From assembly GCA_040954595.2 (NCBI GenBank), contig CM082577.2:20062303-20126302 (forward strand): DNA of 64,000 nt, in the 5' to 3' direction. Source of the DNA: Balanoglossus misakiensis (taxonomy: Eukaryota; Animalia; Hemichordata). Below are positions 1-47,434 of this stretch, piece by piece; position 1 is the stretch's first letter; the number at the start of each line of letters is the position of its first letter. A program made the translations under genes and the position numbers. A model generated the notes under the pieces. That model did not search any database. It was given only the letters and a program-made list of their open reading frames with translations, and was not told where the DNA came from.

Positions 1-316
1 GTTGTGACGTCACCTAACTATCCTGGAAATTATCAAGACCGAATGAACTGTTTCTATTTAATACGCGTACAAGGTGCCGATTCAATTAGACTGACTTTCA
101 CAGATTTTGTGACCGAGTTAAATAAAGATGGCATTGACATTGGAAGTGGTGGCAATGCGGATTATAACGGCGATGGTTGGATTACTTATATGGAAGGAAA
201 CTTAACTTTCACTGGACTGCCAGATGTAATGGAGATTCCCGGCAATCAGGCCTGGATTATTTTCACTTCAGACAGAAATATTGTAATGAAAGGATTCCGC
301 ATCGAATATACCGGTG
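1..316 (+). CDS. Gene 1 exon encoding the first CUB domain (partial at window start)
   Basis: [23 protein letters not shown]...FTDFVTE..KD...[23 protein letters not shown] matches the CUB consensus; phase-1 donor G|GTAAGT at 316/317; from recall, closely resembles the sea urchin fibropellin CUB followed by DGDDC. Confidence 0.92.
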
Positions 317-45300: not shown

Positions 45301-47434
45301 CTTATAGAAACACAAAATACAGTGATGTACAGGGTTGCTTTTGTGTTGTTGGGCTCACTTAAAACTCGTTCAGTAAACAGCACATGGAGCCTTCATCCAT
45401 GCATGACTGTATTTAATCATAGGCAGGTATTAGAATCTGTCGTTTGACTTGAGAATTTTCACTTTCACTAACTGATCAATAGCTGTTACACTTTGATTTA
45501 AATTTTGATCTTAAGTTTTTACACAAATTTCATAAGCCTGACCATGATTAACTTAGAATAAAGGACAATATAGGGAGGGGGGACAAAGGAAATTTTAACA
45601 GATGATTGTTTACAGGACATAGAAATAATTGTATATTTATGTTCATTTTATATACATAGGTATTAGTGCATGTAGTACGAATCCATGCAAGAATGGTGGT
45701 TCATGTATTGATGAAGAAGGCGGATATAAATGTGTGTGTACAGATGGCTGGACTGGCTTCCAGTGTGGCGAGGGTAAGTTCTAACCTGCGTTGTGTTACT
45801 GAATGAATCAAGTCATAAGTTTTTTCACATGTTGCTCATGAATATAATGTAAAAAGGCAAATTACTGCATTATCACCATATCAACTATTTGTAGAAATCC
45901 CACCTTATATTAATAACCATCTAAGCAATACAAGATATTTCTATTAGTCCAATGACACCATGTGATAAGGCCAGCTGACAAAAAATACTCTACAGAATAT
46001 AATGGGCAAGTTCTGGAGTACATGGCGTCTGTCTGGTTATTCACCCACAACTTTGTTATAATCTATTTCTCTGGTCATCACATCAGAAATGTTTGAATGT
46101 TCCGTTCATTTCGAGAGAAAATACATGAAATATAGATTCTAAAGTCACTCAGTTATACCCTTTACACTAAACCTATTCCTATCCCTAACCACTGCAGCCC
46201 TAAGTTGTGGATGGAAATACAGTAAATATCTAGGCAACAAACCTTATTCCAAAAAGTACAACTATTTACACATTTGGAATGCAAATCTACTGATAATCAG
46301 AACAATAGTTTTGTCCTCATTTATCAATACTGAAATCATTTCTGTATGTTTTTCATTAGCTGATGATGGAATATTATCTGAAGACAGTGGTTATACATTT
46401 GCTGGTCAATCCATTACCTTACCACCATGGTGGATAGCAGTCATCATTGCTCTCATCATCATTGCACTATTCCTTCTCTTACTATTGGCATGTCGTAGAA
46501 GTGAAAAGTAAGTTATTTGTGTCTTCTTATCAAAGTTTATTGGCTTCATACTTTTATTTAAATAGGGAGATGAACTTGGAATCTCCTTATTTTGTGAGCA
46601 TGTACTCTCTTTGCAGACAATTGTGGCTCTGCAGTAGAGTAATAGTGGTGGAACTCCATTGCAATGAGTCTGTGCAATATCAAACCTAAATAATGTCTAA
46701 GTAATACCAATAGATAGTATAAATATATTTTGTTTCTTGTCAACAGGGCTAATTATGATGCTGAGAGGGCTGAAGCAGATCGCAGGAAAGGCAAACCAAA
46801 TGTTCAATTAGATGAAGAAATTCCTGTTATTCCAGGTGACGACATGGATAGGACACCAGCCAGAGAAAATGAATATGGCTTCATCCCACCAAGTAGCAGC
46901 AGGTATGGAAAGTCATTTTAACAGTTGTCTGGCATGTGAACACATGTTAATGCAGAGTATGGTGCTGATTTTGTTAGTTTGTGTTTCCTACTGCCCGCAG
47001 TGTCTACATAAACATAAATTAAATTCTATTTCTAATCAAAGTTGAGAACTGCACATCAAGAACTTTATGTAGACCTCATATCCATTTAGTGGGTTTTTCG
47101 ATGTCTCAAGATCTTTATGCCAACTCTAATTGAATCAAAATGCACTTTGATGACATGATGATTCAGTGGACTTGGCCATTAGATCATTGCTTCATTTACA
47201 TAATTAGTGGAATTAATGTTTGTAGGCAATATTTAAATAATAACACACGATAGCGCAGACGAGGGTATTTGACTGTGCATTTGAGATTAATTATATGATG
47301 TGTTAAATGTCAGTTATCCAAAAGTCTTATGTTTTGTTTGGCATTACAGATCAACAGTTGCAGAAGTCAACAGTTACGAGAATCCATGGCCAACAAGCAC
47401 CGACGACTTCACCTTGCAGAAGACCCATCTCTGA
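1..47434 (+). CDS. Gene 1: giant fibropellin-like type I membrane protein (CUB-48xEGF-CUB-8xEGF-TM-cytoplasmic tail), 5' end outside window, 55 coding exons
   Basis: Exons with AG/GT boundaries: <1..316,3049..3162,4636..4749,5641..5754,6318..6431,7543..7653,8195..8308,9285..9398,11106..11219,11633..11746,13809..13922,14269..14382,14742..14852,15171..15284,16099..16326,17686..17799,18148..18261,18549..18662,18932..19159,19462..19575,20551..20664,21181..21294,21602..21715,21968..22081,22200..22313,23063..23176,23551..23664,25336..25449,26455..26568,26835..27062,28122..28349,28569..28682,31589..31702,31921..32034,32229..32342,32764..32877,33457..33570,33852..33965,35255..35368,35548..35661,35977..36090,36694..36921,37860..37973,38205..38318,39601..39960,40111..40233,40970..41083,42376..42609,43029..43142,43636..43752,44830..44961,45660..45773,46360..46507,46747..46902,47350..47434. 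The join is 7479 nt, stays in frame and ends at TGA 47432-47434. Confidence 0.9.
683..1859. repeat. Tandem array, 237-bp unit x about 5, copies apparently identical
   Basis: TTATACTAAGCGTTGGTC recurs at 683, 920, 1157, 1394, 1631. Confidence 0.97.
3049..38318 (+). CDS. Gene 1 array of 48 EGF-like repeats, mostly calcium-binding, in 43 phase 1-1 exons
   Basis: 36 exons of 114 nt, 2 of 111 nt and 5 of 228 nt; each repeat follows D/N-I/V-D/N-E-C-x-S-x-P-C-x-N-G-x-x-C-x-D/N-x-x-N-x-Y/F-x-C-x-C-x-x-G-W/Y/F-x-G-x-x-C. Confidence 0.93.
3342..3464 (+). mobile_element. Fragment of the MITE family also present at 61875-62276
   Basis: CACAGGGGGCTCTCCCTCCGTGCTTTTAT...TTGACATGTTAGGTATATTCAACGGTTAG aligns with about 61875-61994. 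Confidence 0.75.
4307..4414. repeat. Degenerate palindromic mini-element (about 108 bp)
   Basis: Ends AATAATTGTAGT / ACTACAATTATT with partially complementary interior. Confidence 0.5.
8380..8970. mobile_element. Non-autonomous TTAA DNA transposon (Kolobok-like)
   Basis: TIRs AGCCCCAGTATTTCTCGT / ACGAGAAATACTGAGGCT, TTAA on both sides, purine-purine terminus, CpG-rich interior. Confidence 0.8.
9444..10657. mobile_element. Non-autonomous TIR DNA transposon, about 1.2 kb
   Basis: 45-bp inverted repeats CAGTCCGGGTAATGTGTCAGGGTGGAATAGTAGGATTGACCAATC (9444-9488) and reverse complement at 10613-10657 with 2 mismatches; no clear TSD; no transposase ORF. Confidence 0.8.
15387..15792 (+). repeat. 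54-bp direct repeat pair (15387-15440, 15739-15792)
   Basis: ACTGGTGTAYCTGTTAGGCTAAGTAATTATTTKGCATTTCAAATTACCYATTGC, 3 mismatches. Confidence 0.85.
16574..17394. mobile_element. PIF/Harbinger (Tourist-like) non-autonomous element
   Basis: TIRs GGCTGCATTCACAAACACCTCTGGAGGGGGGG / CCCCCCCTCCAGAGGTGTTTGTGAATGCAGCC; 3-bp TSD TAA at 16571-16573 and 17395-17397. Confidence 0.88.
23826..24820 (+). repeat. Old interspersed repeat with (TG)n microsatellite (about 23856-23902) and degenerate internal repeats
   Basis: TTTTTAGGTCCC start, (TG)n and GTCC run, then recurring CTGAAACC..GATTGCTTTGAA.TT motifs near 24375, 24495, 24630, 24785; layout resembles non-autonomous Helentron/pearl-type repeats (inference). 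Confidence 0.5.
27465..28039 (+). mobile_element. Asymmetric double-inverted-repeat element, subfamily A (Crypton-like?)
   Basis: TATTATATTATATCA ... TGATATAATATAATA followed directly by a 140-bp hairpin GCAATAA...TTATTGC (27896-28035) and TTAA. Confidence 0.75.
28770..30174 (+). mobile_element. Asymmetric double-inverted-repeat element, subfamily B, interrupted by a MULE-like insertion
   Basis: Near-identical to the reverse complement of 34392-34707 apart from the insert; hairpin 30030-30170 then TTAA. Confidence 0.85.
28919..29998. mobile_element. Mutator/foldback-like non-autonomous element with about 160-bp TIRs
   Basis: TIRs 28919-29078 and 29838-29998 (give mirrored ORFs in the track); 9-bp TSD CAAAGTTTC at 28910-28918 and 29999-30007; empty site visible in the sister copy near 34560. 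Confidence 0.88.
30663..31381. mobile_element. Kolobok-like MITE, degenerate, host to a nested TA element; related to 49757-50250
   Basis: TIRs AGGTACATGAGCTGCAAC / GTTGCAGCTTATGTGCCT; interior colinear with 49757-50250. Confidence 0.75.
30730..30938. mobile_element. Tc1/mariner-type MITE, 209 bp
   Basis: Perfect 25-bp TIRs CTGTAAAACACTTTATTTTCGCGAG, TA TSD on both sides; absent from the homologous position in the 49757-50250 copy. Confidence 0.88.
32998..33165 (+). mobile_element. Truncated copy of the AGGGACAAAGTC palindromic MITE
   Basis: TTAA-AGGGACAAAGTCTCT...; aligns with the left arm of 33991-34341. Confidence 0.8.
33991..34341. mobile_element. Fully palindromic 351-bp TTAA MITE (Kolobok-like)
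   Basis: TTAA|AGGGACAAAGTC...GACTTTGTCCCT|TTAA with arms complementary almost to the centre. Confidence 0.9.
34392..34707 (-). mobile_element. Asymmetric double-inverted-repeat element, subfamily B, uninterrupted 316-bp copy
   Basis: Reverse complement of 28770-28918 joined to 30008-30174. Confidence 0.88.
36233..36318. mobile_element. piggyBac-like mini-MITE (about 86 bp); other copies near 48237-48323 and 50251-50342
   Basis: Ends TTATCCCGTTCACC / GGTGAAAGGGTTAA (TTAA+CCCT terminus); reverse complement matches the two downstream copies. Confidence 0.65.
39601..39960 (+). CDS. Gene 1 exon encoding the second CUB domain
   Basis: 360-nt phase 1-1 exon: [39 protein letters not shown]...[16 protein letters not shown]...[26 protein letters not shown]. 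Confidence 0.93.
40111..45773 (+). CDS. Gene 1 membrane-proximal block of 8 more divergent EGF repeats (7 exons)
   Basis: Exons of 123,114,234,114,117,132,114 nt, all phase 1-1 with six-Cys EGF spacing, e.g. [44 protein letters not shown]. Confidence 0.88.
41485..42190 (-). mobile_element. 5'-truncated decayed non-LTR retrotransposon (LINE) 3' end
   Basis: Minus-strand peptide [41 protein letters not shown] matches the C-terminal zinc-knuckle region of LINE ORF2; minus-strand AATAAA at 41505-41510 followed by an AT-repeat tail. Confidence 0.8.
43815..44135. mobile_element. Third copy of the AGGGACAAAGTC palindromic MITE, right terminus missing
   Basis: TTAA-AGGGACAAAGTCTCTC..., colinear with 33991-34315; followed by unrelated CpG-rich sequence to about 44790. 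Confidence 0.82.
46360..46507 (+). CDS. Gene 1 transmembrane exon
   Basis: [49 protein letters not shown](K): 21-aa hydrophobic helix then basic stop-transfer residues; acceptor TTAG|, phase-2 donor AA|GTAAGT. Confidence 0.9.
46747..47434 (+). CDS. Gene 1 cytoplasmic tail exons (46747..46902 and 47350..47434)
   Basis: Phase-2 junctions fit; translation [80 protein letters not shown]. Confidence 0.82.

What the first reader, a model, noticed from the sequence alone, without database searches (positions are those of the whole stretch)
1..47434. Giant membrane-anchored fibropellin relative: CUB-EGF48-CUB-EGF8-TM-signalling tail
Seen: one continuous spliced frame of at least 2492 aa with 56 EGF repeats, two CUBs, a TM helix and an 85-aa tail. 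Known: sea urchin fibropellins are secreted apical-lamina proteins built as signal-EGF-CUB-EGF(n)-avidin-like, and Notch has up to 36 EGF repeats plus LNR and ankyrin domains. Here the first CUB and its DGDDC junction look like fibropellin (from recall), but there is no avidin domain, no LNR/ankyrin, no LamG or ERLI tail (Crumbs), and no DSL within the window. Inference: an undescribed receptor or tether for the fibropellin apical matrix, with more EGF repeats than Notch. Automated pipelines would probably label it 'fibropellin-1-like' or 'Notch-like'.
Basis: partly seen in the sequence, partly recalled or inferred. Interest (0 to 1): 0.85.

Follow-up and report, generated by a model that had tools for sequence, protein, structure and literature searches.

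The report
Ancient giant EGF-rod membrane tether
This 55-exon animal gene is predicted to encode one membrane protein with 56 EGF repeats, and its inner half and short cytoplasmic tail match unstudied sea-urchin proteins; it likely works as a long tether from the cell's outer coat to its cortex, which would make the urchin copy a testable candidate anchor for the embryo's fibropellin layer.

Summary
The gene has 55 exons and 54 of 54 GT-AG introns, and gives one stop-free 2492-aa frame: CUB-EGF48-CUB-EGF8-TM-85-aa tail. Its start lies upstream of the window.

It is not an orphan. Five full-length RefSeq 'uncharacterized' proteins from four sea urchins, plus a S. purpuratus fragment, are orthologs: 49-50% identical over CUB2+EGF8 and 41-43% over stalk+TM+tail. 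They keep an NS(Y/F)ENPWP motif and a K-T-x-L (PDZ-type) end. Their 34 proximal EGFs are in register with EGF15-48, and CpG depletion is near-continuous over the locus, so a single gene is very likely. Urchins carry 12-13 unnamed Ig-like repeats where this gene has extra EGFs. A signal-EGF-CUB-EGFn paralog starts 4.9 kb downstream.

It is not fibropellin (no avidin domain, membrane-bound), Notch, a Notch ligand, Crumbs or Uninflatable. CUB1's likeness to fibropellin could not be tested. Best reading (0.5): a calcium-stiffened, roughly 150-nm tether from matrix to a cortical PDZ scaffold. Binding to fibropellin itself is about 0.25.

Giant EGF proteins are common, so repeat number alone is not remarkable. 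I found no paper and no earlier scan note on this family. No RNA evidence was available.

The parts
1..316 (+). Exon 1 of the model: CUB1, cut by the window start. Keeps the Tyr/Glu/Asp/Asp positions of calcium-binding CUBs (signature recalled)
   Evidence: Pfam CUB 2e-16; 41% identical to the gene-2 CUB; groups with it and the urchin head CUBs with weak support, 79/85
3049..38318 (+). 43 phase-1 exons encoding EGF1-48 as one uninterrupted array
   Evidence: 44 of 48 match the calcium-binding consensus and all 47 linkers are 6 residues; EGF15-48 in register with the urchin arrays
39601..39960 (+). CUB2 exon
   Evidence: Pfam 8e-23; 54-56% identical to urchin orthologs; clade 99/88; Glu/Asp/Asp align with cubilin 3kq4
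40111..45773 (+). 7 exons encoding EGF49-56, mostly not calcium-binding (2 of 8)
   Evidence: the same 8 repeats in the same order in urchins
46360..46507 (+). Exon with a 25-aa stalk, the TM helix (46428-46490) and a juxtamembrane Cys plus basic residues
   Evidence: TM and Cys kept in urchins
46747..46902 (+). Tail exon 1, with the conserved Y-D-x-E-(K/R)-A and R-E-N-(E/D)-Y motifs
47350..47434 (+). Last coding exon: NSYENPWP (47369-47392), C-terminal KTHL (47420-47431), stop
   Evidence: tail alignment score 121 and 108 against urchins, best of 2000 shuffles 52 and 57
47435..49955 (+). Likely 3' UTR ending at a cluster of four AATAAA signals (49897-49955)
   Evidence: CpG o/e rises from 0.26 to 0.87 just beyond it; inferred
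52303..63303 (+). Gene 2, a tandem paralog: signal peptide (52303-52375), EGF (57015-57128), CUB (57712-58047), then at least four EGFs; its end lies outside the window
   Evidence: 7 exons, GT-AG, 325 aa without a stop; Pfam CUB 6e-22

Best explanation
The locus is predicted to be one gene for a single-pass membrane protein that likely acts as a long tether between the extracellular coat and the cell cortex. Shown in sequence: two CUBs, 48+8 EGFs, one TM, and a tail conserved with sea urchins that ends in T-x-L. Inferred steps: (1) The missing start is signal-EGF-CUB, as in the orthologs and the neighbour gene. (2) Calcium bound between repeats stiffens the 48-EGF array into a rod of roughly 130-150 nm (about 3 nm per repeat, recalled). 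(3) The distal EGF-CUB head, and perhaps CUB2, grips a matrix or cell-surface partner through the calcium-CUB site; secreted fibropellin-type proteins such as the gene-2 product are the first candidates. (4) The T-x-L end binds a class I PDZ adaptor, as podocalyxin's DTHL binds NHERF, which links the protein to cortical actin. (5) Symmetric phase-1 exons would allow the rod's length to change by exon gain, loss or skipping.
For: Orthologs in D. setosum, D. antillarum (2 models), L. variegatus and L. pictus all join array, CUB2, 8 EGFs, TM and tail. The C-terminus is KTHL here, KTAL in 5 of 5 urchin models, and S-N-I in two sea-star relatives. The distal stalk is interchangeable: extra EGFs here, 12-13 repeats of about 140 aa in urchins predicted as Ig-like beta-sandwiches (pLDDT 83, best Z 8.5), and FN3 in sea stars. 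That points to a spacer role. 44 of 48 repeats match the calcium-binding consensus with a constant linker, against 15-19 of 30-35 in three Notch controls. No catalytic or known signalling domain is in the tail, and there is no furin-type site or RGD. A tandem paralog has the fibropellin head order. In urchins, fibropellin forms the apical lamina, its flanking CUB and avidin domains drive assembly (PMC10336842, passages), and it serves as a scaffold for apical F-actin (PMC9325501, passages). Podocalyxin DTHL recruits NHERF-1 apically (PMC1796660, passages).
Against: There are no data on expression, localisation or binding. The urchin head CUB is degenerate: it has lost the SPNYP-type motif and the Tyr, though the Glu/Asp/Asp remain, so the head may not have one conserved partner. 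The head-CUB clade is weakly supported (79/85). T-x-L ends bind many PDZ proteins and do not prove apical targeting. Gene-2's end is outside the window, so it is not known to be secreted or to carry avidin. Integrins are, from recall, the proposed receptors for the urchin apical lamina. The array is rich in O-fucose and O-glucose consensus sites (30 and 44 of 48), as in Notch-pathway proteins. No hemichordate ortholog appeared, although other notes call this genome an acorn worm.
Confidence: 0.5

Rival explanations
1. A Notch-pathway modulator: the O-glycosylated EGF array binds Notch or its ligands in cis, or controls their trafficking, as Drosophila Uninflatable does.
For: Notch-type EGFs with O-fucose (30 of 48), O-glucose (44 of 48) and O-GlcNAc (33 of 48) consensus sites (consensus patterns recalled). 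Uif, a large CUB- and EGF-bearing membrane protein, antagonises Notch in cis when overexpressed (PMC3340373, passages).
Against: No DSL, MNNL, LNR or ankyrin in the window or the orthologs. These glycan sites are general to this EGF class. A rod longer than Notch with an exchangeable distal part is not needed for cis-inhibition.
Confidence: 0.17
2. A cell-cell adhesion or recognition molecule that spans a wide gap by homophilic or heterophilic head contacts, in epithelia, neurons or gametes.
For: Type I topology with a PDZ end. The head is variable and fast-evolving on a conserved membrane-proximal core. Sea-star and brittle-star relatives carry FN3 or Reeler heads.
Against: No hypervariable cassette array in the window. 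The fibropellin-like head and neighbour point to matrix biology.
Confidence: 0.15
3. An endocytic or capture receptor that binds basic ligands through its calcium-CUB domains, in the manner of cubilin, with the stalk lifting the site above the glycocalyx.
For: Cubilin is the best solved-structure match of both CUBs. The acidic calcium positions are kept. The tail has conserved tyrosines.
Against: There are only two CUBs. The tail has NPW, not NPxY. Cubilin ranks first largely because its four CUBs add up.
Confidence: 0.12
4. Two genes, or mainly a secreted isoform: the EGF array is transcribed apart from the CUB2-TM part.
For: No transcript data. The S. purpuratus model XP_030840936 is a 428-aa fragment without the array or the TM.
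Against: Five full-length urchin models join the parts. The CUB2-anchored register is the best of all offsets in both urchins tested: z 4.16, 0 of 2000 shuffles, and 0.006 after allowing for all offsets in Diadema; z 2.89, p 0.0015, but 0.116 over all offsets in Lytechinus. CpG o/e stays 0.26-0.43 from 3.9 to 49.9 kb, apart from a few raised bins and a 1.4-kb intronic element. No extra coding exon with a Pfam domain was found.
Confidence: 0.04

Closest known systems
RefSeq uncharacterized urchin proteins XP_072167955 (Diadema setosum), XP_071480886 and XP_071510122 (D. antillarum), XP_041474351 (Lytechinus variegatus, LOC121423126), XP_063961993 (L. pictus, LOC129270540); fragment XP_030840936 (S. 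purpuratus, 'fibropellin-3-like')
   Same: Orthologs: EGF-CUB-EGF head, EGF array in register, CUB2, eight EGFs, TM, and tail motifs with a K-T-x-L end
   Different: 34 rather than 48 array EGFs; 12-13 unnamed repeats of about 140 aa after the head, absent from the window; degenerate head CUB
Sea-urchin fibropellins (SpEGF I and III)
   Same: N-terminal CUB followed by a tandem EGF array (PMC10336842, passages); the signal-EGF-CUB order is recalled
   Different: [quoted passage not shown] This protein has 56 EGFs, a second CUB, a TM and a tail
Sea-star XP_022095362 and XP_038064211; brittle-star XP_072035205
   Same: EGFn-CUB-EGF7-10-TM core. The sea-star tails align better than all 2000 shuffles (scores 69 and 71)
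   Different: 37-40% identity, FN3 or Reeler/PBP/LDLa heads, and sea-star arrays not in register. The brittle-star tail is not significant (561 of 2000 shuffles as high). Likely paralogs or fast-evolving orthologs
Drosophila Uninflatable
   Same: Giant membrane protein with CUB and EGF domains
   Different: It has 18 EGFs plus CLECT, CCP, FA58C and HYR domains, all absent here
Notch and Crumbs
   Same: Notch-type EGF arrays and a single TM; Crumbs also has a short tail with a PDZ end (recalled)
   Different: No LNR, ankyrin or LamG; the end is KTHL, not ERLI; two CUBs
Podocalyxin
   Same: Long ectodomain with a T-H-L C-terminus that binds NHERF
   Different: Unrelated sialomucin; an analogy for the tail only

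Membership tests
Fibropellin | N-terminal (signal-EGF-)CUB before a tandem EGF array | tested here: inconclusive
   CUB then EGF48 is present. The start is outside the window; the orthologs and gene 2 show signal-EGF-CUB
Fibropellin | C-terminal avidin-like domain | tested here: not met
   The frame ends in TM and tail. No avidin family in the exons scanned, in 90 other stretches, or in the orthologs
Fibropellin | Secreted, no TM | tested here: not met
   TM helix with hydropathy 3.57, kept in 5 of 5 full-length urchin models
Fibropellin | CUB1 belongs to the fibropellin CUB clade by sequence | not testable with these tools
   No fibropellin sequence was returned. The resemblance is recalled only
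Fibropellin | Located in the apical lamina | not testable with these tools
   Needs immunolocalisation
Notch receptor | LNR/NOD domains, ankyrin repeats and a large intracellular domain | tested here: not met
   25-aa stalk and 85-aa tail with no Pfam family; none in the orthologs
Canonical Notch ligand (Delta/Serrate) | MNNL and DSL domains at the N-terminus | tested here: not met
   None in the window or in the orthologs. The window gene's own first exons are unseen
Crumbs | Laminin-G domains and an ERLI end | tested here: not met
   No LamG; the end is KTHL
Uninflatable | CLECT, CCP, FA58C and HYR domains with three CUBs and 18 EGFs | tested here: not met
   Domain list from PMC3340373; absent here
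Calcium-binding CUB domains | Tyr, Glu, Asp, Asp signature (recalled) | tested here: met
   CUB2 positions align with cubilin 3kq4; CUB1 keeps the same positions
Unnamed urchin EGF34-CUB-EGF8-TM family | CUB2 clade, eight colinear EGFs, tail motifs | tested here: met

The most novel reading that the evidence does not exclude
This is the membrane-bound member of the fibropellin gene cluster and dates to the common ancestor of acorn worms and echinoderms. It co-assembles head-to-head with secreted fibropellins and ties the apical lamina, across some 150 nm, to a PDZ/ERM actin cortex. That would make it the missing integrin-independent anchor through which the apical matrix supports gastrulation, and a deuterostome counterpart of the giant EGF anchors of insect apical matrix.
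Probability: 0.22. Interest if true: 0.75.

Novelty: new variant of a known kind. Interest (0 to 1): 0.48.

Why it matters
Urchin gastrulation depends on the apical lamina, which serves as a scaffold for apical F-actin (PMC9325501, passages). The papers I could read do not name the molecule that crosses the membrane between them. This work turns a one-genome oddity into a conserved family with named genes in Lytechinus, where knockdown is routine, and a specific testable motif (T-x-L). It also shows a stalk whose modules are swapped between lineages (EGF, an unnamed Ig-like repeat, FN3) on a fixed membrane-proximal core. If the genome is an acorn worm, as unchecked notes say, the fibropellin-type head and this receptor predate echinoderms.

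Tried and rejected
No whole genome is held, so the upstream exons could not be read. No RNA holder was listed, so no reads were laid; this is no evidence either way. The CUB2 search of the 50% representatives was filled by multi-CUB proteins: the best 150 of 5401 were listed and no ortholog was among them. A longer-protein search with the S. purpuratus CUB region gave 1 unrelated hit among 110 candidates. Atlas searches gave only generic CUB/EGF clusters. The metagenome scan with the two head CUBs gave 3 loci at 27-38% identity, with 0 EGF motifs each. The complex prediction of CUB1 with the gene-2 CUB gave no verdict (score 0.01, no alignments, CUB1 truncated). The path alignment of repeat order allowing gaps was not clearly above shuffles (25.1 vs 19.8 +/- 2.7 for Diadema; 20.7 vs 20.0 +/- 2.5 for Lytechinus); only the ungapped CUB2-anchored test was significant. 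No higher-order periodicity was found in the 48 repeats (best lag z 2.1). The sea-star arrays are not in register. The stretch at 44215-44346 is rejected as an exon: no real Pfam match, and the orthologs have nothing extra there. Fold searches of the urchin repeat found no close family (best Z 8.5 and 8.4, near the common range); this does not show a new fold. A recalled domain name gave 0 papers. The Yanai 2005 paper is not held. A search for a paper on calcium-EGF rigidity gave 0, so that point is recalled.
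Full report
Observation. A six-frame scan found 61 EGF motifs, all on the + strand, 56 of them before base 47434. Each lies in an exon of 111-234 nt with an AG acceptor and a GT donor in phase 1. With the CUB exons (1-316, 39601-39960), the TM exon and two tail exons, the model has 55 exons, 54 of 54 GT-AG introns and one 2492-aa frame with a single terminal stop (the last three boundaries were wrong and were corrected). 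The order is CUB1-EGF48-CUB2-EGF8-stalk-TM-85-aa tail. Pfam confirms both CUBs and finds nothing in the tail. All 67 non-exon + strand stop-free stretches of 62 aa or more and 23 - strand stretches of 95 aa or more gave no match at a Pfam cut-off; shorter hidden exons are not excluded. Repeats are at most 77% identical, so the array is old and not an assembly artefact.

Surroundings. A second gene starts at 52303: signal peptide, EGF, CUB, then at least four EGFs, 325 aa without a stop, running out of the window. Its CUB is 41% identical to CUB1. CpG o/e is 0.96 over 1-3900, 0.36-0.43 through gene 1 and 0.26 up to the AATAAA cluster at 49897-49955. It is then 0.87 and 0.81 over the gap and the first 10 kb of gene 2, and 0.34 after 62400. 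A few 1.5-kb bins inside gene 1 are higher (0.66-0.77), and an intronic inverted-repeat element reaches 1.3. I read this as germline gene-body methylation over one transcription unit with an unmethylated 5' part (inference). In both genes the drop comes about 4 kb after the head CUB, which suggests that gene 1 begins a few kb upstream in the same layout.

Relatives. The CUB2 search (2 hits among 59 candidates of 210-2000 aa) returned a 428-aa S. purpuratus model. It aligns colinearly with EGF48-CUB2-EGF49-53 at 48% over 363 aa. A search of 1791-5700 aa proteins with an EGF region gave 1899 hits among 3471 candidates, of which 120 were listed. Two listed proteins matched CUB2 (54%) and the TM and tail (E about 1e-11 within that set). 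Their clusters hold five models from D. setosum, D. antillarum, L. variegatus and L. pictus, all 'uncharacterized'. Their layout is signal-EGF-degenerate CUB-EGF1-2, 12-13 repeats of about 140 aa, EGF34, CUB2, EGF8, TM, tail. One model is partial, and the D. setosum start lacks a clear signal peptide. Identity to the window protein is 49-50% over the core and 41-43% over stalk, TM and tail. The tail score exceeds all 2000 shuffles. CUB2 and the urchin CUB2s form a 99/88 clade inside a group with hemichordate CUBs and one brittle-star CUB. CUB1, the gene-2 CUB and the urchin head CUBs group weakly, at 79/85 (54 rows: 12 chosen, 42 best BLAST matches from stored proteins, with isoforms left out). 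The urchin 34-repeat arrays match EGF15-48 best at the CUB2-anchored offset, although a gapped version of this test was not significant. Two sea-star proteins and one brittle-star protein share the core design at 37-40% with other heads.

Organism. The window protein lies outside the urchin group (about 50%, against 65-79% between urchin genera). Unreviewed notes on other parts of this genome call it an acorn worm (58 of 86 notes fit those words). I did not test that. It fits the distances, but no hemichordate ortholog appeared in my three searches, which is unexplained.

How unusual. Of the 120 listed long EGF proteins, 21 have 56 or more EGF motifs, and none has an unbroken run of 48 (longest 45). 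My pattern undercounts irregular repeats (30-35 in three Notch proteins), so this is approximate. Size alone is therefore not special among invertebrates. The regularity is: 44 of 48 repeats are calcium-binding type and all 47 linkers are six residues.

Mechanism. The fixed part of the family is the membrane-proximal core and tail; the distal stalk varies. The urchin 140-aa repeat is absent from the window and is predicted as an Ig-like sandwich without a close family. Sea stars use FN3. Swappable rod modules suggest a spacer. The tail has no enzyme or known domain, and the Tyr in NSYENPWP is Phe in Lytechinus, while T-x-L is invariant in the window and the urchins. I therefore favour a tether from matrix to a cortical PDZ scaffold (0.5). 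Fibropellin-type proteins are the first candidate partner (about 0.25) because of the shared head order and the tandem neighbour. Rivals are a Notch modulator (0.17), a cell-cell adhesion molecule (0.15), a capture receptor (0.12) and two genes (0.04). Calcium stiffening, repeat length, glycosylation consensus patterns, the calcium-CUB signature, the class I PDZ rule and the integrin alternative are recalled, not from calls.

Known families. It fails membership of fibropellin (no avidin domain, has a TM), Notch, DSL ligands, Crumbs and Uninflatable. Whether CUB1 descends from the fibropellin CUB stays untested, because no tool returned a fibropellin sequence.

Literature. Seen as passages: PMC10336842, PMC9325501, PMC6626399, PMC3340373, PMC1796660, PMC10381214, PMC10951248. 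PMC11529275 was seen as one reference line. All others were seen as search listings only. No description of this architecture appeared in searches, and six accession or locus terms gave 0 papers. These searches cover open-access main texts only. Supplementary tables (urchin proteomes, single-cell markers) and the subscription papers on fibropellins and the urchin adhesome were not seen and may list these genes. No earlier scan note covers this locus or its CUB2.

Verdict. A real and correctly described gene, belonging to a conserved, uncharacterised family of giant EGF/CUB membrane proteins. It is a new variant of a known kind, with a concrete and cheap test in sea urchins. Interest 0.48.

Noticed in passing
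window 52303-63303: A second gene, signal-EGF-CUB-EGF4+, in tandem on the same strand. It has the fibropellin head order; its end (avidin, TM or other) is outside the window.
   Followed up: partly
P0185 residues about 252-2080; P0187 about 225-1903: 12-13 tandem repeats of about 140 aa with no Pfam family, predicted as Ig-like beta-sandwiches. An unnamed domain that merits its own family definition.
   Followed up: partly
window 1-64000: A sharp mosaic CpG pattern: depleted gene bodies and CpG-rich 5' parts, with a boundary at the poly(A)-signal cluster near 49.9 kb.
   Followed up: partly
window 28757-30174 and 34392-34720: A MITE-like element of about 1.4 kb with long terminal inverted repeats (96-98%) and internal 33-bp repeats, and a related copy in another intron. 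It is CpG-rich, so likely recent.
   Followed up: no
window 683-1859: Five perfect 237-bp tandem copies in the first intron: a very young satellite or an assembly feature.
   Followed up: no
window 33010-33157, 33986-34346, 43825-44137: A second family of small inverted-repeat elements in three places, 80-91% alike.
   Followed up: no
window 57318-57604: A 128-bp palindromic element (96%) in the intron before the gene-2 CUB exon.
   Followed up: no
window 63410-64000: A 112/223-bp tandem array running off the window end, inside a gene-2 intron.
   Followed up: no
   Followed up: no
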